32,000 nt of DNA, from positions 990,001-1,022,000 of the forward strand of contig CP010424.1 of assembly GCA_000830275.1 (NCBI GenBank), read 5' to 3'. The position numbers were made by a program, and so were the translations under genes. The first letter of the stretch is position 1. Each line of letters begins with the position of its first letter. The notes beneath the pieces are model-generated. The model saw only the letters and a program-made list of their open reading frames with translations, made no database searches and was not told where the DNA came from. The DNA is from an archaeon GW2011_AR10 (lineage in GTDB: Archaea > Iainarchaeota > Iainarchaeia > Iainarchaeales > GW2011-AR10). Positions 1-22,473 of the stretch are shown here, in pieces.

Positions 1-318
1 CTGGAAAATAACAAGGTGATTAAGGCTTATTCTGTGGAACTGGATTACGAGAATATGGGCTATGAGTTACAAGCCATAACTTCAATTATTGTTTCTAAAG
101 GGAAACTAAATCAGGTTGAAAACAAAATAGCTGTGCACCCGAACGTTACAGCGGTTTACGATATTACGGGCCACTTTGATGTTTTAGTTATTTCGAGGTT
201 TAAGACAAGGAGAGGCCTTGACGAGTTCCTGAAAAAAATCCAGACATACGAGTTCGTGGAAAAGACTGAAACTGACATAATTTTGAACACCATTAAGCGG
301 GCTCCGTTAAAGGTTTGA
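1..318 (+). CDS. Lrp/AsnC-family transcriptional regulator, C-terminal effector (RAM) domain; 5' end lies outside the window
   Basis: Frame 1 is open from base 1 (LENNKVIKAYSV...), so the GTG at 16 is probably internal. The sequence fits the linker plus AsnC-type ligand-binding domain (VIKAYSVELDYENMGYELQAITSI...VTAVYDITGHFDVLVISRF...LDEFL). No HTH is visible because it would lie upstream. Confidence 0.6.
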   Translation: MENNKVIKAYSVELDYENMGYELQAITSIIVSKGKLNQVENKIAVHPNVTAVYDITGHFDVLVISRFKTRRGLDEFLKKIQTYEFVEKTETDIILNTIKRAPLKV

Positions 319-1001
319 CCTGCACCGGAAATGAGGCGCTTCGAAAAGCAGTTAATAGTGAAATAGTTTATTCTGTAATGTATTCTCCTTCTGAACTAGA
401 ACTGGTTGGCGCTATTATTGGAGATGGGCACATTCATGCCAAACCACCTAAATATTATTTTGGTTTAACTGGAAATAAGGTGACTGACAGGGAATACTTT
501 GCAAAGCTCTCAGCTTTGATTAGTAGTGTTTGGAATAAAAATGCAAGAGTATTTGAGAGCAGTGGTGGTTTAAGAATAAGAGTTTATTCTAAAAAGATAG
601 TTCATAAACTCATTAATGATTTTAGCATCCCCTTTAATGCTGGAAAGTGTTATTCAGTCAAAATTCCCGGCGTGTTTCTCAAAGACTATTCCAAGTCAAA
701 GCACATTATTCGCGGCATAGCGGATACTGATGGCTCCGTGTTTGTTTCTGACAAGCCCGGCGCCATGGATTACCCTTCTTTGGAAATAACCACTGTAAGC
801 AAAGAGTTGGCGGAGAATATTTGGGAAATTTTAATTAAAAATGGTTTTAGGGTGGCTAGAATAAGGAAATCAAGGTCTCGCCTGAGTAAATCCGATGCTT
901 ATAAGGTTTGTTTGTATGGAAAAGCAAATTTGAAGAAGTGGATTGAGGAAATAGGTTTTTCAAATCCCCATAAATACCTAAAAGCGGTTTCATTTCTTTA
1001 A
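315..1001 (+). CDS. Free-standing double-motif LAGLIDADG homing-endonuclease-like protein
   Basis: Two LAGLIDADG-type motifs sit about 100 aa apart (LVGAIIGDGHI and IIRGIADTDGSVF). The size fits monomeric I-DmoI-like enzymes. The ORF-track start at 315 is TTG and overlaps the upstream stop (GTTTGA). The first ATG is at 378. Confidence 0.75.
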   Translation: MTCTGNEALRKAVNSEIVYSVMYSPSELELVGAIIGDGHIHAKPPKYYFGLTGNKVTDREYFAKLSALISSVWNKNARVFESSGGLRIRVYSKKIVHKLINDFSIPFNAGKCYSVKIPGVFLKDYSKSKHIIRGIADTDGSVFVSDKPGAMDYPSLEITTVSKELAENIWEILIKNGFRVARIRKSRSRLSKSDAYKVCLYGKANLKKWIEEIGFSNPHKYLKAVSFL

Positions 1002-1044: not shown

Positions 1045-1212
1045 GGGAAGGTAGCTCAGCCTGGGAGAGCACATGACCGGCACAAGCTTGCCTGTTAGTG
1101 ACTTGTTTTGCCAGTGTGTAGCTGAAGATGGGGCAACATTGTTTTGTTGTTTTAATCTTCGTTGCTCTCAGCGGTGACCATGGTGTCGCGGGTTCAAATC
1201 CCGCTCTTCCCA
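1045..1212 (+). tRNA. tRNA-Phe(GAA) with two introns. Exons 1045-1075, 1121-1127 and 1177-1212; introns 1076-1120 (Sprinzl 30/31) and 1128-1176 (37/38)
   Basis: Acceptor GGGAAGG pairs with TCTTCCC (one G-U) and the discriminator is A. D arm is GCTC-AGCCTGGGA-GAGC. T arm is GCGGG-TTCAAAT-CCCGC. Joining the three exons gives anticodon stem CATGG/CCATG and the classical Phe loop CTGAAGA, for 74 nt with no encoded CCA. Both introns fold into BHB-like motifs with splice sites 2 nt into 3-nt bulges. Confidence 0.85.
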
Positions 1213-1850: not shown

Positions 1851-1981
1851 GGGCCCATAGCTCAGTCTGGTAGAGCACTTGATTTTTCGAAGCTTTTTAG
1901 GCTTGGAAGAGGTGCGGCTCTTAAACGCTTTCCAGAAGTAGGGTGACCAAGGTGTCGAGGGTTCGAATCCCTCTGGGCTCG
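1851..1981 (+). tRNA. tRNA-Lys(CUU) with two introns. Exons 1851-1881, 1917-1923 and 1946-1981; introns 1882-1916 (30/31) and 1924-1945 (37/38)
   Basis: Acceptor GGGCCCA pairs with TGGGCTC (G2-U71) and the discriminator is G. D arm is GCTC-AGTCTGGTA-GAGC. T arm is GAGGG-TTCGAAT-CCCTC. The spliced product has stem CTTGG/CCAAG and loop CTCTTAA, and reads like typical archaeal tRNA-Lys (GGGCCC.TAGCTCAGTCTGGTAGAGC....GGCTCTTAACC...GTCGAGGGTTCGAATCCCT). All four splice sites lie in 3-nt bulges flanking 4-bp helices. Confidence 0.88.
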
Positions 1982-13786: not shown

Positions 13787-15670
13787 TCAGCTTCTTTCAA
13801 CAGATTTTACTTCCTCCATTTTGGAGATTCCTTCAATTATTTTGTCTAGTTTACTAAGGTTGCGCAGTTTGATTTCAAAGACGCAGTTGAACATGTTGGT
13901 TTGAGTTGTTTTGACATTGGCTGAAACAATGTTTGCCTTCTGAGATGAAATAATGTTCAGTATGTCCTTCAGCAACCCAACCCTGTCTTTGCCTGTAACC
14001 TTCAACTCAACAATGTAGTCCGTACCCTGCTTGTGTTCCCATTCAACGTTTATCAGTTTTTCCGCAGGAATGCTATTGAGTTGTAGGCAGGACTTTCTGT
14101 GGACTGAGATTTTTCTCTTGGTGGTCTTAAAGCCAACGATTTCCTCCCCAAGAAGGGGGTTACAGCAATTTGCTATCCTTATCCTCTTGTCGCTTGTTTT
14201 CACTACCTGTTTTCTCAGCGGCTTGGCAGCGGTTTTCTTGGCTTGCTTTATGTTCAAGCGCTGCTTTATCTTGGCTTTTGCTTTGGATGTCTTTACAAAG
14301 CCAAGCCACTGTGTTCTTGGTTTCTGCTGCTGCGATGTGAATATTTGGACGGTGTCGCCATTTTTCAGTTCAAAGTTCAGTGGCACTGGCTTGCCGTTAA
14401 CAACTGCTCTAATGCATTTAAAACCCAGCTCAGTGTGAACTGCAAACGCAAAATCGAGCACAGTGGCCTTTTCTGGCAGCTCAATGACATCCCCCTTCGG
14501 GGTCAAAGCATAAATTGTGTTCTCAAACAGCTCAAGATTTTTCAGTTCAGAGCCTGCTCCAGGAGTCTGCCTCTGCCAGTCAATCAACTGCTTTAGCCAA
14601 GCCAGCTTTTTATCAAATTTTTCCTCTTTCTCTATTCCCTTGTAAAGCCAGTGGCCTGCAACCCCTATCTCTGCCGCATCGTTCATTTTATTTGTTCTGA
14701 TCTGGATTTCAAGTGGCATTCCGCCTGGCCCGATAACTGTTGTGTGCAGCGACTGATAGCCGTTTGGCTTTGGCTTTACAATGTAGTCGTCAAATTCTCC
14801 TGGAATAGGTTTCCAAAGGGATTGAACGATGCTTAAAACCTCGTAGCAGTCCTTAACTGTTTCGGTTATAACCCTTAGGGCAACGATGTCATAGATCTCT
14901 TCAAAGCTTTTATTTCTTGAAATCATTTTTCGGTAAATGCTGCTGATGGGCTTTGCTCTTCCAATAACTTCGATTAATGACTTGGTTTTCTGCAGTTCCT
15001 TCTCCAGAATTTTTCTCATCTTTTCTATTTCAGTTTTTCTTTCGCGCTCTTTTTTCTCTATTTTGCTAGAGATTTCCCTGAAAATTTCCGGTTTCCTGTA
15101 TTTTAGGACAAGATTATCAATGCTGGACTTAAGCGGGTAAAGGCCGACTTTTTCAGTGAAAGGAGAAATTATTTGCTCGGCTTCAATTACGCGCAATTCC
15201 TGCACCTCTGCCGGGTCATCACCCATTCCTTTTAGGTCGTCAATCCTTTCAGCTATTACGATTAGGATTAACTTAGGGTCCTTTGCTGTGGCATAAAAAA
15301 TTTTTTTGGCTGCATCTATTTTTTCTATTCTTGCCTGGTCTTTTGGCACTAAAATCCTTTCAGCGTTTCCGGCACTTACAACTAGTCCGGCAACTTCTTC
15401 GCCGAATTCTTTTTCTAGGCTCTGTTCATCGGCACCAAAGCGGACTGCATTATGTAGAAGCCCCGCAGTTATTACTTCCGGGCTTGCATGCATTTCTGTC
15501 AGGATTTTTGCAGTGCCGATATTGTGCAGCAGCGACTTTTTTTCTGAACTGCTTTTTTCCAAGACCCCTTCAAGATACGCTGCGGCCTTTCTAATTGTTC
15601 GCTCCTCTAGTTCTATTCTGTTTTCTTTAACTTTCCTGATTAAACCGTTTAGCTCTCGATCTTCTTTCAT
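13787..15670 (-). CDS. relA: Long RelA/SpoT homologue ((p)ppGpp synthetase) with degenerate hydrolase domain. Domain order: HD-like, synthetase, TGS, Cys-rich zinc-finger domain, ACT
   Basis: Synthetase motifs are YRKMISRNKSFEEIYDIVALRVI, KPNGYQSLHTTV and EIQIRTNKMNDAAEIGVAGHWLYK. TGS is IYALTPKGDVIELPEKATVLDFAFAVH...NGDTVQI. The Cys-rich domain is ANCCNPLLGEEIVGF...SVHRKSC. ACT is VELKVTGKDRVGLLKDILNII. The N-terminal HD region reads GLLHNAVRFG where canonical enzymes have LLHDvvEDT. Confidence 0.9.
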   Translation of the reverse strand: MKEDRELNGLIRKVKENRIELEERTIRKAAAYLEGVLEKSSSEKKSLLHNIGTAKILTEMHASPEVITAGLLHNAVRFGADEQSLEKEFGEEVAGLVVSAGNAERILVPKDQARIEKIDAAKKIFYATAKDPKLILIVIAERIDDLKGMGDDPAEVQELRVIEAEQIISPFTEKVGLYPLKSSIDNLVLKYRKPEIFREISSKIEKKERERKTEIEKMRKILEKELQKTKSLIEVIGRAKPISSIYRKMISRNKSFEEIYDIVALRVITETVKDCYEVLSIVQSLWKPIPGEFDDYIVKPKPNGYQSLHTTVIGPGGMPLEIQIRTNKMNDAAEIGVAGHWLYKGIEKEEKFDKKLAWLKQLIDWQRQTPGAGSELKNLELFENTIYALTPKGDVIELPEKATVLDFAFAVHTELGFKCIRAVVNGKPVPLNFELKNGDTVQIFTSQQQKPRTQWLGFVKTSKAKAKIKQRLNIKQAKKTAAKPLRKQVVKTSDKRIRIANCCNPLLGEEIVGFKTTKRKISVHRKSCLQLNSIPAEKLINVEWEHKQGTDYIVELKVTGKDRVGLLKDILNIISSQKANIVSANVKTTQTNMFNCVFEIKLRNLSKLDKIIEGISKMEEVKSVERS

Positions 15671-15769
15671 TTCATCTAAAGAATTCTTTCACGACAGTAT
15701 TTTAGGAATTATGCCCCTGTTGCAAAAGACTTAAATATGTCTTAATAGTTTATTTAAGTCAGGTGATTC

Positions 15770-15927
15770 CGCCATTTTTTAAATGGCGGGTTTAATGGAA
15801 TTCGTTACTGTCAAACAACACTTTGTCAAAAAGAAAACAGGTGTTTTTATTTCACTTGACAAAGTGTTGAACCATGTGCTTCATTCATAATCTTTACGCC
15901 CGCCACCCAACTTATTGGGTGGTTTTC
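15770..15927 (+). ncRNA. Structured intergenic element (three strong hairpins, the last followed by a T run). Candidate small RNA or corA-proximal regulatory RNA; strand assignment is tentative
   Basis: Hairpin 1 is CCGCCATTT-TTT-AAATGGCGG (15770-15790, 9 bp). Hairpin 2 is a perfect 14-bp inverted repeat, CAACACTTTGTCAA (15817-15830) with TTGACAAAGTGTTG (15857-15870), enclosing the sub-hairpin AAAACA-GG-TGTTTT. Hairpin 3 is CCACCCAA-CTTA-TTGGGTGG (15904-15923) followed by TTTT. Confidence 0.35.
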
Positions 15928-15951
15928 GAAATAAAAATTTGGTTGGTTTAA

Positions 15952-17663: not shown

Positions 17664-17879
17664 TTAAATCGGAATGTTTGAAGGCTCGCTGTTCTCTTCC
17701 GGAATTTCTGGAATCGGAATGTTATCAGCACTCTGCTCTAGCGCAAGGCATTCTTCCAGTGATGGAGCAGTGCCGCCGCCAGGGCAGTCAACCTGCTGAG
17801 GCGGGTTTTCAGTTGTGCAACCAGCAAGCAAAATCAGAAGTATTGCGGCAGAAGCCAAAAACAAACTTGTTTTACTCAT
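17664..17879 (-). CDS. Small secreted protein with a lipobox-like signal peptide
   Basis: MSKTSLFLASAAILLILLAGCTT is followed by a short acidic/Pro-rich mature part with one Cys pair (DCPGGGTAPSLEEC). Its start overlaps the stop of the upstream 938-aa gene by 8 nt, which suggests co-translation. Confidence 0.5.
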   Translation of the reverse strand: MSKTSLFLASAAILLILLAGCTTENPPQQVDCPGGGTAPSLEECLALEQSADNIPIPEIPEENSEPSNIPI

Positions 17880-20688
17880 TTGTTTCTCCCCCTATGTTCG
17901 GAAGTGTTGGCGACAATGGTACTTCTTCTTCGCCTAAAGTGCATGCATTCAATGAATAAACTGCAAAGCCTTTCCCTAGGTCCGACTCATTGATTTGCCT
18001 GTTGAAAGCGTTAACCCATGTGTTGCCTGCTGCATTGAAAGTGTAAGCCGCCTTTAAATTACAGCTGCCAATGTCGTTAATATTCTTTCCAATCATTTCA
18101 GGCACTACTGCCACAAAGTTCCACCCTGTTCCTAACCCCTCTAATTCTTCCAGCCCGATTGGTTCTCTTACAGTTACTTTTGCCTCGCAGCTTTTTCCCG
18201 GGTTGTAAAGCCAGTATGCCTTGCCTGCTTTTGCTTCACTTACTTTTCTGAAAGAATTGCTTTCCCTGTCATACTCCAGCAGGGTCCACTCGCTTGAGTT
18301 GCAGCTGTTTCTCTCAGCCTCAATTTCTCCAGGCAAGGAGAAAAGGTTCCATCCCTTTGAAACAACGTAATTGAATGTAATTCCTGTTGACTTTTTCTTT
18401 ACAATGAATTTTGCTTCACTGCTTCCAATGCTTAAAACCTTTATTTCAAAGTCGTTTACCTCAACGCTTTCGCCTTCTCTTAAGGTGAAAACCTCAAATG
18501 GCTTCGGCGGCACCAGTATCTCAATAGCTTCTTGTCGAGCTTCTTCAACTACGATGCTTTCAGTGGAAACCCCAGTAACTTCTCCTGCAGCACTTTTTTC
18601 AGCGATGTCAGTGGTTGAAACAACAGTGCTTTCAATTCTTTCCTTTTCCACTTTTTCTCCAACTGCTGTTTCTCCGCTCAAGTAACCGCTAACGCTTATT
18701 TCAACGAATTTGTCCTCGGTGCATGAATATGTGTCGGTTGTTGTTTCAGTTGTTTCTTCCCCTGCCATCCCGATATCTGGGCAGGCAACCATGCTTGCAA
18801 CTTTTAAGAGTTCCATTCTGATGTTTGCTTCAAGAACTCTCGCAACCTGGTTTTCGCTTAAGCTGAACGGCTCATTTACATGGACATTAATAATGGATGT
18901 GCCCTTTTTTGTCACTATAAATGCTGCTTCTCCGGCTCCTACTTCCAATGCCTTAATTTTTACGCCATAGAGGTCAAGCTCTTCCCCTGCCCTTAAACCG
19001 TATTCGGCAACAAGTTTTTTCTCAATCTCATCTTCATACACAATAAATTCTTTCCAAACGCTGATGTATGCAATGTTTTGCGGGGGATTCGATTTCAAGA
19101 TGGCTATATTATTCAGCCTGATGTAGAGGTCTTCTTCTACAACCAACGCAGTCTGCTTTTCTCCCAGCTCAAATTTCTCATTAATCCTAACCTTGATTAA
19201 TCTTTCTGACAGGCCTTCCCTTACAACGAAAACCCCAAAGCCATCCTCATAGTCTGCAAACCTAATGTAGTACCCTTGGAACGGCACTTCCTCTCCCTCA
19301 TAAATTTTTAATAAGGCCGCACCACTGCCGCCGCCACTTTCATAATTTGCCTTGGTTGAAGCTGTCACGCTTGCAATCACCCTGCTATCGCACCTTGAAA
19401 CATAATTCTCAGAGGAAGCTGTGCATCCCATTAAAACAAAATCATTTAGTGTCAGCTTCATTACTTCTTCGTTCTTTGAAAGAATTATTGCTGTCTGCTC
19501 TTCTTTCAGCTTAAACTTTTCATTCAGGTATGCCCTTATTGTTTCAGGAGACGTTTTTTTGGTTACAGAGAAAACCCCTGTTTCTCCTGTGAGCTCTAAT
19601 GCTGATATTGCGTGCCCGAAAACCTCTGCGGTTTCATTTGCATGCAAATAAATGGTTTTCCCGGTTCCTGCTGCAATTGTTTTTTGCAAAACCGCTGAGT
19701 CAGTGGTTGCAATAACCCCTGCAGCGCCACTGCCTGAAGCTGCTGAACTTTCCTCATAGTAGTAAGGAACTAAAATGTCTAAAGCCACAAAGTAGGTTCC
19801 TTCAGGGCATGAACCACTGTTGTCAGCTGTTATGCAGTAGATTTTATCCTGCCCTATGGTCCTCAAGTAAATGTTCAACCCGGTTTCCTTTACAATTGCT
19901 CTTTGCTTTTCCAGCAGCTCAAATTTTTCGTTTAAGCCCACATAAATTGTTTCAGGAAGCGTTTCCTTTTCCTTCACCACAAACGCGCCGTAAGATGCTG
20001 AAGTCGCTTCATTGAAGTAAACCAAATATTTTCCAATTGCTGCAGATTCCTCTTCTTTGATTGTTAGTTCAGCGATTTCTGCCGGGTCTCCAGCAGTAGT
20101 GGAAGCAGTAACCGAAGCATAAACTGCTTTGCCTGTGTCAACCAGTTTGTTCAAAGTCATTTTTACAACTGTTTCTCCTTTCTTTTGCACTAACGCGGTT
20201 CCAAGAACCGAAAGCTTGAATTCTTCCCCCAGCTCAGCGATTACTGTTTCTTTCACTGGTTTTGAAACAATAAATGTGGCATAATCTGGCTCAAGTGAGA
20301 ACTCGTAGTCTCCTTTGAAGATGCCTGTGTTGGTTAACTTTAACCCAAATACTTCCTCGCTTGCTCCTTCGGTTAAATGCACTTTTGTCTGCGCCCAAAC
20401 ACGTGTTTCCTCAGAGCCATAAAGCTTGCTTACAAGAAGATTAACTGATGACACAACAGCAATGCACGGCTGCCCTTCGCTGCATTCTGGTGCAGGGTAA
20501 ATGCTGCTTGCTTCAATCAAAACATGCTCGCTTTCAAGGTTTACTGCCTGTCCTGCGTATAACTTGAACTCTTCATCCAGTTCGATTGGGATTTCCCTTA
20601 CAAGCGAGAAAGCAAAGGCATCGAATGCTTGGGCAAACACAAGTGCCAGCACAAACAGGGAAAACAAAAGATGCTTCTTTTGAATCAT
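17872..20688 (-). CDS. Large secreted protein built from six copies of an unrecognised ~100-130 aa module plus a distinct C-terminal domain
   Basis: Signal peptide is LLFSLFVLALVFAQAFDAFA. Module starts are IELDEEFKLYAGQA, IAELGEEFKLSVLGTALV, VGLNEKFELLEKQRAIV, AYLNEKFKLKEEQTAII, VRINEKFELGEKQTALV and VHVNEPFSLSENQVARV. Module ends are ATFIVSKP, GAFVVKEK, GVFSVTKK, GVFVVRE, AAFIVTKK and AKFIVKKK. Confidence 0.75.
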   Translation of the reverse strand: MIQKKHLLFSLFVLALVFAQAFDAFAFSLVREIPIELDEEFKLYAGQAVNLESEHVLIEASSIYPAPECSEGQPCIAVVSSVNLLVSKLYGSEETRVWAQTKVHLTEGASEEVFGLKLTNTGIFKGDYEFSLEPDYATFIVSKPVKETVIAELGEEFKLSVLGTALVQKKGETVVKMTLNKLVDTGKAVYASVTASTTAGDPAEIAELTIKEEESAAIGKYLVYFNEATSASYGAFVVKEKETLPETIYVGLNEKFELLEKQRAIVKETGLNIYLRTIGQDKIYCITADNSGSCPEGTYFVALDILVPYYYEESSAASGSGAAGVIATTDSAVLQKTIAAGTGKTIYLHANETAEVFGHAISALELTGETGVFSVTKKTSPETIRAYLNEKFKLKEEQTAIILSKNEEVMKLTLNDFVLMGCTASSENYVSRCDSRVIASVTASTKANYESGGGSGAALLKIYEGEEVPFQGYYIRFADYEDGFGVFVVREGLSERLIKVRINEKFELGEKQTALVVEEDLYIRLNNIAILKSNPPQNIAYISVWKEFIVYEDEIEKKLVAEYGLRAGEELDLYGVKIKALEVGAGEAAFIVTKKGTSIINVHVNEPFSLSENQVARVLEANIRMELLKVASMVACPDIGMAGEETTETTTDTYSCTEDKFVEISVSGYLSGETAVGEKVEKERIESTVVSTTDIAEKSAAGEVTGVSTESIVVEEARQEAIEILVPPKPFEVFTLREGESVEVNDFEIKVLSIGSSEAKFIVKKKSTGITFNYVVSKGWNLFSLPGEIEAERNSCNSSEWTLLEYDRESNSFRKVSEAKAGKAYWLYNPGKSCEAKVTVREPIGLEELEGLGTGWNFVAVVPEMIGKNINDIGSCNLKAAYTFNAAGNTWVNAFNRQINESDLGKGFAVYSLNACTLGEEEVPLSPTLPNIGGETNE

Positions 20689-20858: not shown

Positions 20859-21521
20859 ATGAGCAAGTTGCGTGAAATGCGTTCAGTTCAGCAAGAAAAA
20901 AAGGGTTTTGACTGGACTTATGTTGCAATAGCAGTGGTTGTTGGCTTGGCTCTTTTTTCTGTCTACTTTATTTTTTTCCAGCCCTCCCCTAATGGCCAGG
21001 CTGTTGGTAATACCGCCGGAATTGAGGATGATGACCCATTCAAGGGCGGGGTTAATGCCCCAGTTACTATTGTTGAGTTCTCTGATTTCCAGTGCCCTGC
21101 CTGTGCTGCAGCAGCTCCAACAGTTAAGAGGATAGCTGAGGCGTATGGCGACAAAGTAAAAATAGTTTACCGTGATTTCCCATTAATCAACACTCACCCA
21201 TTTGCCCAGAAGGCAGCTGAGGCAGCTGAGTGCGCTGACGAGCAGGGCAAGTTCTGGGAAATGCATGATGTGCTCTTCCAAAACCAGCAGAGTTTAGGCG
21301 TGCCTGCATTAAAGCAGTACGCTGTTGAGCTCGACCTTAACCAGGAACAGTTCAACTCATGCCTTGATTCCAGCAAATACGCTGCAGAAGTGGCTTCAGA
21401 TGAATCTGCTGGAATTTCTCTTGGGGTGAGGGGAACTCCAACCTTCTTCATAAACGGAGTGCGATACAGCAACATGTCGTTTGAGCAATTCAAGGCTGTT
21501 ATTGACCCTCTGTTGGGTTAG
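20859..21521 (+). CDS. Membrane-anchored DsbA-family thiol:disulfide oxidoreductase (paralogue 1)
   Basis: N-terminal TM is WTYVAIAVVVGLALFSVYFIFF. The thioredoxin-fold active site is FSDFQCPACAAA and the cis-Pro loop is VRGTPTFFING. Confidence 0.8.
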   Translation: MSKLREMRSVQQEKKGFDWTYVAIAVVVGLALFSVYFIFFQPSPNGQAVGNTAGIEDDDPFKGGVNAPVTIVEFSDFQCPACAAAAPTVKRIAEAYGDKVKIVYRDFPLINTHPFAQKAAEAAECADEQGKFWEMHDVLFQNQQSLGVPALKQYAVELDLNQEQFNSCLDSSKYAAEVASDESAGISLGVRGTPTFFINGVRYSNMSFEQFKAVIDPLLG

Positions 21522-21732
21522 CCCCCAAAATCATTGAATTAACTTTTTCACGTTAAAAGAAAGGTTTTTATACTGTTTTTTGCCCATTTTAATTAAACCA
21601 ATTGCATAAACATTTTTTTTGAATGGTTAAAATTTAAGGTTAAATTATACTTTTCACTAATAAAAAATAAGTGTTTTTAAACATTTGCCAAATGAATTTA
21701 ATGAATTGCAATTAAAACCGAGGTGTAAATTA

Positions 21733-22473
21733 ATGGATGAAAAACTCTATTTGCCTTTAAGCATTGTGTTTTCTGCTTTAGTCCTTGCAGGAACAATTTT
21801 CTTTGTTGGGGCAGACGTAAGCTCGAAGATGACCGGCCTTGCAACAGCGCTTGGTTCAATTGAGCTTGGCTCTGGTTCTGGCTCTGATTCAGGCGGAAAT
21901 TTGGCTCCTGAGCCAACTCCACAGCAGCCAACTCCTAGTGCTGTTATAGACATGCAGGAGCTTGCAGATGATGATCCTGCAAAAGGTTCCACTGATGCTC
22001 CCGTTACCATCATTGAGTTCTCTGATTTCCAGTGCCCGTTCTGCGGAAGGTTTTATGACCAAGCGCTTTCACAGATCCAAAGCGAATACATTGACACAGG
22101 AAAGGTAAAGCTGATTTACCGAGACTTTCCTTTGAGCAGCATCCACCCGGAAGCACAGCCTGCAGCTGAAGCAGCTGAATGCGCCAACGAGCAGGGCAAG
22201 TTCTGGGAAATGCACAACAAGATTTTTGAAAACCAGGATTCAATGAGCGCTGCTTCCTACAAGCAGTGGGCAGCAGAGCTTGGCTTGAACACAACGCAAT
22301 TCAATTCCTGCCTTGATACGAGTAAGTATGAGGGAGAGGTTCTTGCGGATTTCTCTGATGGTTCAAATGCAGGAGTTTCCGGCACCCCAACCTTCTTCAT
22401 CAATGGCCAGAAAATTGTTGGAGCACAGCCTTTCAGTTCATTCAAGGCAGTGATTGACGCAGAGCTTTCCTAA
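21733..22473 (+). CDS. Membrane-anchored DsbA-family thiol:disulfide oxidoreductase (paralogue 2)
   Basis: The ORF-track start is 21685, but the ATG at 21733 is preceded by GAGGTG at an SD-like distance. TM is LYLPLSIVFSALVLAGTIFFVGA, followed by a Gly/Ser-rich linker. Active site is FSDFQCPFCGRF and cis-Pro loop is VSGTPTFFING. It shares identical nucleotide runs with paralogue 1 (for example GAGCAGGGCAAGTTCTGGGAAATGCA). Confidence 0.8.
   Translation: MDEKLYLPLSIVFSALVLAGTIFFVGADVSSKMTGLATALGSIELGSGSGSDSGGNLAPEPTPQQPTPSAVIDMQELADDDPAKGSTDAPVTIIEFSDFQCPFCGRFYDQALSQIQSEYIDTGKVKLIYRDFPLSSIHPEAQPAAEAAECANEQGKFWEMHNKIFENQDSMSAASYKQWAAELGLNTTQFNSCLDTSKYEGEVLADFSDGSNAGVSGTPTFFINGQKIVGAQPFSSFKAVIDAELS

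What the first reader, a model, noticed from the sequence alone, without database searches (positions are those of the whole stretch)
13787..15670. Complete bacterial-style long RelA/SpoT homologue in an archaeal context, with a dead-looking hydrolase site and a RelA-type EXDD motif
**Seen**
- The full long-RSH architecture is present: HD-like, synthetase, TGS, helical region, Cys-rich zinc-finger domain and ACT.
- Synthetase motifs are intact (NGYQSLHTTV; EIQIRTNKMNDAAEIGVAGHWLYK).
- In the hydrolase domain the second His is kept, but the HD Asp is Asn and the following ED pair is absent (GLLHNAVRFG versus canonical LLHDvvEDT).
- The synthetase charge motif reads EFDD.

**Established**
- The EXDD type is associated with monofunctional RelA, and RXKD with bifunctional Rel/SpoT.
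- Long RSH enzymes are a bacterial and plastid hallmark. The RSH-superfamily surveys I know of report them as essentially absent from archaea, which at most carry scattered small alarmone synthetases or hydrolases.

**Inference**
- Every neighbouring gene here looks archaeal, so this looks like a horizontally acquired alarmone synthetase.
- It is predicted to be synthetase-only, yet its C-terminal ribosome/tRNA-sensing domains would have to work on an archaeal ribosome.
- No hydrolase partner is visible in the window.
Basis: partly seen in the sequence, partly recalled or inferred. Interest (0 to 1): 0.7.

Follow-up and report, generated by a model that had tools for sequence, protein, structure and literature searches.

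The report
Iainarchaeal RelA-like alarmone synthetase, helical domain missing
This is a real, intact gene for a bacterial-type "stringent response" alarmone synthetase in a DPANN archaeon, but it is a lineage-wide, vertically inherited family already noted in the literature, and its undescribed aspect is a distinctive archaeal form with a dead hydrolase site, a reversed charge motif and no helical linker domain.

Summary
The ORF (13787-15670, minus strand, 627 aa) is a genuine long RelA/SpoT homologue with all synthetase catalytic residues. One point is wrong: the alpha-helical (AH) domain between TGS and the zinc finger is deleted, about 85-90 residues.

The contig is archaeal (class I LysRS, archaeal TIM, intron-bearing tRNAs). 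The gene is not a recent or isolated transfer. Four independent Iainarchaeum (Diapherotrites, DPANN) genomes carry the orthologue in the same gene block of 15 kb or more, and its composition matches its flanks. RelA/SpoT genes in 69% of Diapherotrites genomes were already reported in 2021.

The form itself appears undescribed. At least 32 clusters at 50% identity share the AH deletion, a dead HD site (0 of 32 keep the ED pair), mostly ExDD, and a "TTKRK" zinc-finger signature. They branch apart from proteobacterial RelA, so this looks like an independent RelA-like subfunctionalisation.

The most likely function is a synthetase-only (p)ppGpp enzyme whose conserved TGS and zinc-finger sensors still read deacylated tRNA. 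The hydrolase partner remains unknown.

The parts
13787..15670 (-). Complete RSH gene (627 aa plus stop); ATG at 15670, stop at 13787-13789
   Evidence: ORF list. TIGR00691 503 bits. N-terminus co-linear with homologues at 100% coverage. Translation verified.
15143..15556 (-). Pseudo-hydrolase (HD_4) domain, aa 39-176; fold kept, catalytic motif lost
   Evidence: Pfam HD_4 2.5e-19. pLDDT is mostly 80-90 and the domain is all-helical. Mean pairwise identity in the clade is 0.30 against 0.62 for SYNTH.
15434..15463 (-). GLLHNAVRFG (aa 70-79), the degenerate HDxxED motif: H73 kept, D to N74, E to R77, D to F78
   Evidence: In 32 TTKRK-type representatives, 0 keep the ED pair.
15227..15256 (-). 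IAERIDDLKG (aa 139-148), the counterpart of the hydrolase motif KLADRLHNMRT (D to E141, H to D144, N to D145)
14636..14962 (-). (p)ppGpp synthetase (RelA_SpoT) domain, aa 237-345, catalytic residues intact
   Evidence: Pfam 1.3e-41. Invariant R238 K240 K248 D261 R266 D295 Y296 K301 N303 Y305 H309 E321 Q323 across 28 archaeal sequences.
14786..14797 (-). EFDD charge-reversal motif (aa 292-295), RelA-type
   Evidence: F293 and D295 are invariant, E292 and D294 at least 90% conserved.
14336..14515 (-). TGS domain, aa 386-445, including H412 (equivalent to E. coli RelA H432)
   Evidence: Pfam 7.4e-21. H412 invariant. Alignment to EcRelA.
14183..14326 (-). Residual TGS-to-ZFD connector, aa 449-496 (one helix plus a disordered linker), the site of the AH-domain deletion
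   Evidence: The linker is 55 residues (counted over aa 446-500) against 124-156. The deletion maps to EcRelA ~509-590. pLDDT is below 50 at 475-488.
14036..14182 (-). Zinc-finger / ribosome-intersubunit (ZFD/RIS) domain, aa 497-545, with C502 C503 H524 C528 and the clade signature TTKRK (516-520; R519 aligns to EcRelA R629)
   Evidence: PF28438 RelA_RIS. Invariant Cys/His. Alignment.
13793..14026 (-). ACT/RRM domain, aa 549-626
   Evidence: Pfam ACT_4 1.6e-19. The model shows a beta-alpha-beta-beta-alpha-beta fold.
15671..15951 (.). Divergent RSH/corA intergenic spacer with four perfect inverted repeats; presumed promoter/regulatory region, function unknown
   Evidence: A TAAAATA element lies 29-35 nt upstream of the ATG and there is no Shine-Dalgarno sequence (read).

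Best explanation
The gene encodes the Iainarchaeota (Diapherotrites, DPANN) version of a long RelA/SpoT homologue. It was acquired from Bacteria long ago and has since been inherited vertically.

It most likely works as a synthetase-only (p)ppGpp synthetase:
- The SYNTH domain transfers pyrophosphate from ATP to GDP/GTP. The ExDD charge motif points to RelA-like substrate and Mg2+ behaviour.
- The N-terminal HD domain is a folded pseudo-enzyme that has lost the HDxxED catalytic set. It probably serves as a structural or allosteric partner of the synthetase, as in RelA.
- The strongly conserved TGS domain (with the CCA-sensing His) and the CCHC zinc-finger and ACT domains act as the sensor that switches the enzyme on. 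The most plausible trigger is deacylated tRNA on the archaeal ribosome.
- The AH domain, which in bacteria spans between TGS and ZFD along the A/R-tRNA, has been replaced by a short flexible linker. The ZFD carries a clade-specific basic TTKRK patch. Both may be adaptations to the archaeal ribosome or to a different autoinhibition geometry.

Shown: architecture, residue conservation, deletion, synteny, clade structure. Inferred: catalytic activity, lack of hydrolysis, tRNA/ribosome activation.
For: - Architecture and family scores.
- Closest solved structures are ribosome-bound E. coli RelA (5iqr, E=4e-35), B. subtilis Rel and full-length SpoT.
- Synthetase, TGS and ZFD residues are invariant across 28 archaeal sequences at 37-46% identity, with no invariant column in aa 1-230.
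- Per-domain identity is SYNTH 0.62, TGS 0.59, ZFD 0.57 against pseudo-HD 0.30.
- HDxxED is lost in the whole clade (ED pair 0/32; D78 equivalent is N 13, D 6).
- The third charge-motif position is D in 26/32.
- Literature links HDxxED loss plus EXDD to monofunctional RelA: PMC2666561, PMC3153485.
- Vertical inheritance: the same gene order occurs in L001-L004 (KaiC 74-76%, ABC ATPase 67-72%, TIM 51-61%, IdsA 51-52%, RSH 40-44%).
- RSCU distance is 0.377 (range over genes 0.276-0.547) and tetranucleotide r is 0.912 against 0.895 +/- 0.03.
- Clade monophyly has 100% bootstrap, separate from the beta/gamma-proteobacterial RelA clade (100%).
- Prior report of RelA/SpoT in 69% of Diapherotrites: PMC8407392.
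Against: [quoted passage not shown] That work covered only Haloferax and Sulfolobus, which lack the gene.
- The AH domain lost here is part of the bacterial ribosome/tRNA-binding path, so ribosome-dependent activation is not assured.
- The pseudo-HD keeps an H49-H73-N74-[D/E]141 constellation in most close relatives (18, 20, 16 and 22 of 23). Residual metal or ligand binding, or even weak hydrolysis, is therefore not excluded.
- No (p)ppGpp hydrolase was identified, and unopposed synthetases are toxic in bacteria (PMC3153485).
- ExDD is not a strict marker: 15 of 18 ExDD long forms keep HDxxED.
- The trees are neighbour-joining with weak deep nodes.
Confidence: 0.7

Rival explanations
1. The enzyme is a synthetase-only (p)ppGpp synthetase but is ribosome-independent. 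The AH-less C-terminal region acts only as an autoinhibitory or ligand-sensing module, for example through free tRNA, amino acids bound by the ACT domain, or a protein partner, and the enzyme does not dock in the archaeal A site.
For: - The AH domain that spans TGS to ZFD in ribosome-bound RelA is deleted.
- The best global structural superposition is with the compact, ribosome-free full-length SpoT (7qpr, TM 0.53-0.55) rather than ribosome-bound RelA (TM 0.41).
- Archaeal ribosomes differ from the bacterial ribosomes on which RSH C-terminal domains evolved (general knowledge).
Against: - TGS and ZFD, the two ribosome/tRNA-contacting domains, are the most conserved parts after the synthetase (0.59 and 0.57).
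- The residues aligned to EcRelA H432 (CCA sensing) and R629, and the CCHC ligands, are retained.
- To my knowledge the bacterial contact sites (A-site finger, uS19, uL16) are universal ribosome elements.
- An extended 25-30 residue linker could still bridge the gap.
Confidence: 0.2
2. The enzyme is still bifunctional. The conserved H-H-N-[D/E] site binds metal and retains enough hydrolase activity to balance synthesis, so no separate hydrolase is needed.
For: - H49, H73, N74 and E/D141 are conserved in 16-22 of 23 close relatives although the domain as a whole is only 30% identical.
- No SAH is present in the window or in the conserved neighbourhood.
- NCBI names some members 'bifunctional'.
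Against: - The ED pair is absent in 0/32 representatives, and the H147/N148 equivalents are replaced.
- Loss of HDxxED defines the monofunctional class (PMC2666561).
- Across the wider clade even the His/Asn positions decay, which is the pattern of a relaxed former active site.
- The 'bifunctional' names are automatic family-level labels.
Confidence: 0.06
3. The finding is an artefact: bacterial contamination or a chimeric contig, or a decaying non-functional relic of a transfer.
For: Other public assemblies of this very gene are chimeric. P0002 joins a bacterial Rel N-terminus to the archaeal C-terminus exactly at the conserved NGYQSLHTTV motif, and P0020 is a second mis-join.
Against: - In the window the N-terminal half carries the clade-specific motifs (HN, AERxD, EFDD) shared with the Iainarchaeal orthologues.
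- Both flanks are syntenic in four independent MAGs.
- Composition is uniform.
- The ORF is intact, with every catalytic and sensor residue under evident purifying selection across 32 or more clusters at 50% identity.
Confidence: 0.02

Closest known systems
E. coli-type RelA (beta/gamma-proteobacterial monofunctional RelA[hS])
   Same: - Long RSH with a pseudo-hydrolase domain (HDxxED lost) and an ExDD charge motif (EFDDY is identical).
- Intact synthetase.
- TGS His (H432 equivalent), CCHC zinc finger, R629 equivalent and ACT domain.
- Best structural hit by E-value: 5iqr.
   Different: - Not a member of the RelA clade (separate at 100% bootstrap). NF008124 scores 391 bits against a cutoff of 728.
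- Lacks the ~85-90-residue AH domain.
- Keeps both His ligands and has Asn at the HD Asp position, whereas RelA has lost them (LLWRG / ALLFPLAD).
- The ZFD reads TTKRK instead of TQGRG.
- The host is an archaeon.
Bifunctional Rel (B. subtilis, M. tuberculosis/smegmatis, S. equisimilis, T. thermophilus)
   Same: - Highest sequence similarity overall (8fr8 E=1e-105; Firmicutes Rel 41-44% identity over the N-terminal region plus TGS).
- Same domain order.
- The likely ancestral type of the archaeal clade.
   Different: Rel has HDxxED, KLADRLHNMRT, RxKD and a full AH domain. The window protein has none of these.
AH-less archaeal Rel-like proteins with an intact HD domain ('B-like': P0023/24/26/56/63/131 and others)
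   Same: - Same AH deletion at the same position (linker 63-68 residues).
- Archaeal genomic context: NAC, Sec61-beta, Orc1/Cdc6, archease.
- Groups with the Iainarchaeal clade in NJ trees (64.5% and 59%).
- Some also carry EFDD.
   Different: - They keep H-D and usually E (full HD..ED in 5/14) and KLADKLHNMRT.
- They are mostly RxKD-type (K at the third position in 11/14).
- They lack the TTKRK signature.
- They are plausibly still hydrolase-active.
Small alarmone synthetases/hydrolases, the only RSHs reported from archaea in the 2011 census
   Same: Same RelA_SpoT synthetase fold (SAS structures hit at E~1e-6).
   Different: SAS and SAH are single-domain proteins. This is a five-domain long RSH.

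Membership tests
Long RSH (RelA/SpoT homologue) superfamily | N-terminal HD-fold domain followed by a RelA_SpoT synthetase domain | tested here: met
   Pfam HD_4 2.5e-19 and RelA_SpoT 1.3e-41. TIGR00691 scores 503 bits, above the 499.2 cutoff. Fold search finds Rel N-terminal structures at TMt 0.6-0.75.
Long RSH (RelA/SpoT homologue) superfamily | C-terminal regulatory region: TGS, AH, ZFD/RIS, ACT/RRM | tested here: inconclusive
   TGS, ZFD/RIS and ACT are present. The AH domain (PF19296) is absent and replaced by a 55-residue connector. Four of five accessory elements are met.
Long RSH (RelA/SpoT homologue) superfamily | Synthetase catalytic residues (Mg-binding Asp, EIQIRT Glu/Gln, basic ATP/GTP-binding residues) | tested here: met
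   D261, E321, Q323, R238, K240, K248, R266, K301, N303, Y305 and H309 are invariant in 28 archaeal sequences.
RelA subfamily (monofunctional, beta/gamma-proteobacterial) | Loss of the HDxxED hydrolase motif | tested here: met
   LLHNAVRF in place of LLHDxxED.
RelA subfamily (monofunctional, beta/gamma-proteobacterial) | ExDD charge motif in the synthetase domain | tested here: met
   EFDD at aa 292-295 aligns to the EFDD of E. coli RelA.
RelA subfamily (monofunctional, beta/gamma-proteobacterial) | Phylogenetic placement within the RelA clade / equivalog-level HMM score | tested here: not met
   The RelA clade (E. coli plus Alteromonadaceae plus Burkholderiales and others) is monophyletic at 100% and excludes the archaeal clade. 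NF008124 scores 391 bits against a cutoff of 728.
Bifunctional Rel/SpoT | Intact HDxxED and KLADRxHNMRT hydrolase motifs | tested here: not met
Bifunctional Rel/SpoT | RxKD motif | tested here: not met
   EFDD instead. NF008303 (SpoT) scores 379 bits against a cutoff of 947.
Functional stringent factor (ribosome- and deacyl-tRNA-activated synthetase) | Activation by deacylated tRNA in the ribosomal A site; (p)ppGpp production in vivo | not testable with these tools
   Only the sequence prerequisites could be checked: the TGS His, the CCHC zinc finger and the R629 equivalent are conserved.
Iainarchaeota AH-less 'TTKRK' RSH clade (defined here) | TGS-to-ZFD linker of 51-60 residues, TTKRK in the ZFD, no ED pair, conserved gene neighbourhood | tested here: met
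   Linker 55, TTKRK at 516-520, ED absent. Synteny with L001-L004. Clade bootstrap 100%.

The most novel reading that the evidence does not exclude
DPANN archaea of the phylum Iainarchaeota run a genuine stringent response. An AH-less, RelA-like factor docks on the archaeal ribosome, reads deacylated tRNA through its conserved TGS and zinc-finger domains, and makes (p)ppGpp. This would be the first alarmone signalling in Archaea. It would have arisen by an independent replay of the RelA-type subfunctionalisation (hydrolase death plus charge reversal), and its ZFD (TTKRK) and linker would have been remodelled to fit a non-bacterial ribosome.
Probability: 0.35. Interest if true: 0.75.

Novelty: new variant of a known kind. 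Interest (0 to 1): 0.45.

Why it matters
[quoted passage not shown] Bulk annotation had already flagged RelA/SpoT genes in DPANN genomes. I found nobody who has examined what kind of enzyme they encode.

This window gives a clean, well-anchored example of a phylum-wide archaeal subfamily with three properties:
- It keeps every synthetase and sensor residue under selection.
- It killed its hydrolase site and flipped the charge motif independently of proteobacterial RelA, which makes it a natural replicate for asking why these two changes go together.
- It dispenses with the AH domain that bacterial stringent factors use on the ribosome.

This makes two questions directly testable: whether alarmone signalling exists in Archaea, and which parts of the RSH C-terminus are really needed to read a starved ribosome. 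On the practical side, public annotations of these proteins range from 'hypothetical' and 'HD domain-containing' to 'bifunctional synthetase/hydrolase'. The 'bifunctional' label is probably wrong for the dead-HD clade.

Tried and rejected
- **Chimeric or contaminant contig.** Rejected by synteny in four MAGs and uniform composition. Two other public assemblies of the same gene (P0002, P0020) are chimeric. P0002 initially looked like a close relative with an intact hydrolase and was discarded once this was clear.
- **Recent HGT.** Rejected. Orthologues are only 40-46% identical yet syntenic, and codon usage is ameliorated.
- **Descent from proteobacterial RelA.** Rejected at the NJ level.
- **Hydrolase partner.** All other window ORFs were scanned with NCBIfam and Pfam and no HD_4 was found. 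The conserved neighbourhood holds none either.
- **Profile search in the word-indexed database.** It added few members. The exhaustive representative search was needed to see the diversity.
- **Source names for the B-like clade.** They were truncated or absent, so its phylum could not be named, only shown to be archaeal by context.
- **Jimmy et al. supplementary tables.** The held text contains no archaeal terms, so I could not tell whether their 13 long-RSH subfamilies include this one.
- **Promoter/terminator consensus scan.** No better than shuffles, and the scan uses a bacterial model anyway.
- **Rfam on the structured spacer.** No family found.
- **Palindromes as a repeated mobile element.** Rejected within the window.
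- **ARAGORN.** It missed both tRNAs. Rfam found them.
Full report

Yes, with one error. A single 627-codon ORF occupies 13787-15670 on the minus strand. Pfam finds HD_4 (aa 39-176), RelA_SpoT (237-345), TGS (386-445) and ACT_4 (549-626). NCBIfam TIGR00691 'spoT_relA' scores 503 bits, just above its 499-bit cutoff. The RelA and SpoT equivalog models are far below theirs: 391 against 728, and 379 against 947. The zinc-finger/RIS domain is present (PF28438 RelA_RIS in the precomputed annotations; C502, C503, H524 and C528 invariant).

Against solved structures, LLHDTVEDTG of mycobacterial Rel aligns to LLHNAVR-FG, VADRLHNMRT aligns to IAERIDDLKG, and the EFDDYV of E. coli RelA aligns to EFDDYI.

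The 'helical region' is not there. Only 55 residues separate TGS from the zinc finger, against 124-156 in E. coli RelA/SpoT and bacterial Rel. The gap corresponds to E. coli RelA residues of about 509-590. PF19296 (RelA_AH_RIS) is missing from this protein and all its close relatives but present in the bacterial hits. An AlphaFold model (mean pLDDT 78.6, pTM 0.64) shows one short helix and a disordered 14-residue linker at that place.

**2. Is the context archaeal, and is the contig sound?**

Neighbouring genes include several archaeal markers:
- a class I lysyl-tRNA synthetase of the archaeal type (TIGR00467, above cutoff);
- the short archaeal triose-phosphate isomerase (PRK04302, above cutoff);
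- a single-domain KaiC-type ATPase;
- an IdsA-like prenyl synthase.

Two tRNA genes missed by ARAGORN are found by Rfam with 60- and 103-nt insertions in the anticodon loop, which are archaeal-type introns. Other neighbours (MacB/Lol-like ABC transporter, CorA, thioredoxin-like lipoproteins, carbamate kinase, aldehyde dehydrogenase) are domain-neutral. 'Every neighbour looks archaeal' is therefore an overstatement, but the contig is archaeal.

The decisive test is synteny. In four independent 'Candidatus Iainarchaeum' species-representative MAGs (L001-L004) the RSH orthologue (40-44% identity) sits in the same gene order: fn3 protein, IdsA, KaiC, CARDB protein, ABC permease/ATPase/permease, RSH, CorA, TIM, thioredoxin-like lipoproteins. 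Neighbour identities range from 29% to 76%. No bacterial locus shares the block as a whole.

Composition agrees. The codon-usage distance of the RSH gene to the rest is 0.377, within a range of 0.276-0.547 over 24 genes. Its tetranucleotide correlation is 0.912, against 0.895 +/- 0.03 for equal-sized tiles. The gene is therefore native to this lineage and was present in the common ancestor of these genomes. It is not contamination, not a chimera and not a recent transfer.

**3. What is already known?**

A 2021 comparative-genomics study of DPANN reports RelA/SpoT in 69.0% of Diapherotrites, 41.7% of Woesearchaeota, 21.3% of Pacearchaeota and 19.0% of Nanoarchaeota, and predicts bacterial origin (PMC8407392).

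Searches for DPANN, Diapherotrites or Woesearchaeota together with ppGpp, alarmone or stringent response found no paper that analyses these proteins further. (p)ppGpp itself has never been detected in an archaeon, but only organisms lacking the gene were examined (PMC8646023). The presence of the gene in this phylum is thus known. Its anatomy appears not to be.

**4. The family**

The nearest relatives are 614-631-aa proteins at 37-46% identity. Where named, they are 'Candidatus Diapherotrites archaeon' or 'archaeon'. Ordinary bacterial Rel of about 720 aa (Firmicutes) follows at 41-44% over only about 70% of the length.

An exhaustive HMM search of 1.84 billion 50%-identity representatives with a profile of the archaeal sequences returned 54 short-linker proteins among the best 150. 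They fall into three groups:

| Group | n | TGS-to-ZFD linker | ZFD signature | Hydrolase motif | Charge motif |
|---|---|---|---|---|---|
| T | 32 | 51-60 residues | TTKRK | ED pair in 0/32; HD Asp position N 13, D 6, other 13 | D at third position 26/32, E at first 21/32 |
| B-like | 14 | 63-68 residues (one outlier, P0320, at 44) | variable | largely intact (full HD..ED in 5/14) | K-type in 11/14 |
| M | 8 | 77-99 residues | mostly GRG-like | canonical | canonical RxKD type |

B-like contigs are archaeal by context: NAC, Sec61-beta, Orc1/Cdc6, TFIIS-type ribbon, archease/RtcB and DUF357.

In neighbour-joining trees the Iainarchaeal clade is monophyletic at 100% bootstrap (20 sequences). The B clade is also at 100%, and the two together at 64.5%. 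With the broader sample, T plus most B-like forms group at 59%. The beta/gamma-proteobacterial RelA clade is monophyletic at 100% and excludes the archaeal sequences. Deeper nodes are unsupported, so the bacterial donor cannot be named.

The shared deletion at the same position in T and B independently supports a single AH-less archaeal ancestor. Hydrolase decay and charge reversal would have occurred later in the Iainarchaeota branch, an independent parallel of RelA evolution.

**5. Selection pattern and likely mechanism**

Across 28 archaeal sequences the invariant columns fall exclusively in three domains, with none in residues 1-230:
- synthetase: R238, K240, K248, D261, R266, D295, Y296, K301, N303, Y305, H309, E321, Q323;
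- TGS: T390, P391, G393, D406, F407, H412, G416;
- zinc finger: C502, C503, P505, G508, H524, C528.

Mean pairwise identity within the Iainarchaeal clade is 0.62 for SYNTH, 0.59 for TGS, 0.57 for ZFD, 0.39 for ACT and 0.30 for the pseudo-HD. The pseudo-HD is nevertheless predicted to fold confidently.

H412 aligns to E. coli RelA H432 and R519 to R629. To my knowledge these residues are needed for sensing the tRNA CCA end and for ribosome binding. The model's best matches are ribosome-bound RelA (5iqr, E=4e-35), B. subtilis Rel (6yxa) and full-length SpoT (7qpr, TM 0.53-0.55).

Taken together with the literature link between HDxxED loss, EXDD and monofunctional synthetases (PMC2666561; GDP preference, PMC3153485), the best-supported reading is a synthetase-only (p)ppGpp synthetase whose C-terminal sensor is still in use. 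The most likely signal is deacylated tRNA on the ribosome. In this reading the AH deletion and the basic TTKRK patch are lineage-specific remodelling.

Activity, lack of hydrolysis and the activating signal are inferences. None could be tested here.

**6. Caveats and rivals**

- ExDD is not a reliable marker on its own. Among 104 long-form representatives, 18 have the Asp-type motif and 15 of these keep a full HDxxED.
- The close relatives conserve an H-H-N-[D/E] constellation at the former metal site (18, 20, 16 and 22 of 23). That is more than E. coli RelA retains, so ligand binding or trace hydrolysis cannot be excluded. I rate residual bifunctionality at about 6%.
- Because the AH domain is part of the bacterial ribosome-binding path, a ribosome-independent, autoinhibition-only role for the C-terminus is a serious rival (about 20%).
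- No hydrolase is present in the window or the conserved neighbourhood. Whether one exists elsewhere in the genome could not be tested.

**7. Verdict**

The framing as a surprising, isolated horizontal acquisition does not hold. The family is common and vertically inherited in Iainarchaeota, and its presence there has been published.

What remains of interest is the apparently undescribed anatomy of the archaeal subfamily and the convergent RelA-like trajectory. These make archaeal alarmone signalling experimentally approachable.

Novelty: new variant of a known kind. Interest: moderate (0.45).

Noticed in passing
P0002 and P0020 (proteins from other public assemblies; no window coordinates): Two other public assemblies of this same gene are chimeric. 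P0002 (JGI, 84.8-kb contig) is 100% identical to the window protein over aa 303-563 but has a bacterial-type N-terminus (LLHDVVEDT, GKFKDY) joined exactly at the conserved NGYQSLHTTV motif, plus a junk C-terminal tail. P0020 shares only the TGS-ZFD part. Conserved RSH motifs seem to act as mis-assembly junctions in metagenomes.
   Followed up: yes
window 15671-15951: The 281-nt divergent spacer between the RSH gene and corA is packed with perfect inverted repeats: 14-nt arms CAACACTTTGTCAA with a 26-nt spacer, 10-nt arms GACTTAAATA, a 9-bp hairpin CCGCCATTT, and 8-nt arms CCACCCAA. It folds far better than shuffles (z = -4.9 and -5.0 on the two strands). There is no Rfam match, and the motifs are unique within the window. 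By my estimate from the match coordinates, relatives L002/L003 have only about 80-90 nt here. It could be operators, a structured leader or a small inserted element.
   Followed up: partly
window 1045-1212 and 1851-1981 (+); ORF 315-1001 (+): Two tRNA genes have long anticodon-loop insertions, roughly 94 and 57 nt beyond the model. Rfam finds them but ARAGORN does not. A LAGLIDADG_3-domain ORF lies immediately upstream of the first one. This suggests archaeal tRNA introns and a homing-endonuclease-like gene in one small region.
   Followed up: partly
L083, L085, L087 (loci of P0026, P0063, P0131): A second archaeal AH-less RSH branch (635-648 aa) keeps H-D and E of the hydrolase motif (LLHDVLE[TN], KLADKLHNMRT) yet already carries EFDD. 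Other B-like representatives are RxKD-type. It looks like an intermediate between bifunctional Rel and the dead-HD Iainarchaeal form. The host phylum could not be named because the source names were truncated.
   Followed up: partly
(50%-identity representatives, long forms): Among 104 full-length (AH-containing) RSH representatives, 18 have the Asp-type (ExDD-like) charge motif, and 15 of these retain a complete HDxxED. The textbook equation 'EXDD = monofunctional' is therefore far from strict.
   Followed up: partly
P0301, P0208, P0261, P0006, P0012, P0014 (homologues): Public names for members of the dead-HD clade are inconsistent: 'hypothetical protein', 'HD domain-containing', 'TGS domain-containing', 'RelA/SpoT family' and 'bifunctional (p)ppGpp synthetase/hydrolase'. 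The last is probably a misannotation, since no member keeps the ED pair.
   Followed up: partly
L006, L021 (Anaerolineae loci): Two Anaerolineae RSHs group with the beta/gamma-proteobacterial RelA clade at 99% bootstrap in the NJ tree. This could be transfer of RelA into Chloroflexota or attraction between ExDD-type sequences. I did not examine it.
   Followed up: no
window 17872-20688 (-): A 938-aa ORF has no NCBIfam or Pfam hit at the thresholds used. It lies between the TIM gene and the thioredoxin-like lipoprotein pair.
   Followed up: no
window 20859-21521 and 21685-22473 (+): Two tandem paralogues of the Rcas_1661 thioredoxin-like (seleno)lipoprotein family, a family described from Bacteria, are conserved in the Iainarchaeum loci. 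This is probably another old bacterial acquisition in the same syntenic block.
   Followed up: no
window 13786/13787: The ABC permease gene (+) and the RSH gene (-) converge with zero intergenic bases: the two stop codons abut. There is no room for a terminator between them.
   Followed up: no
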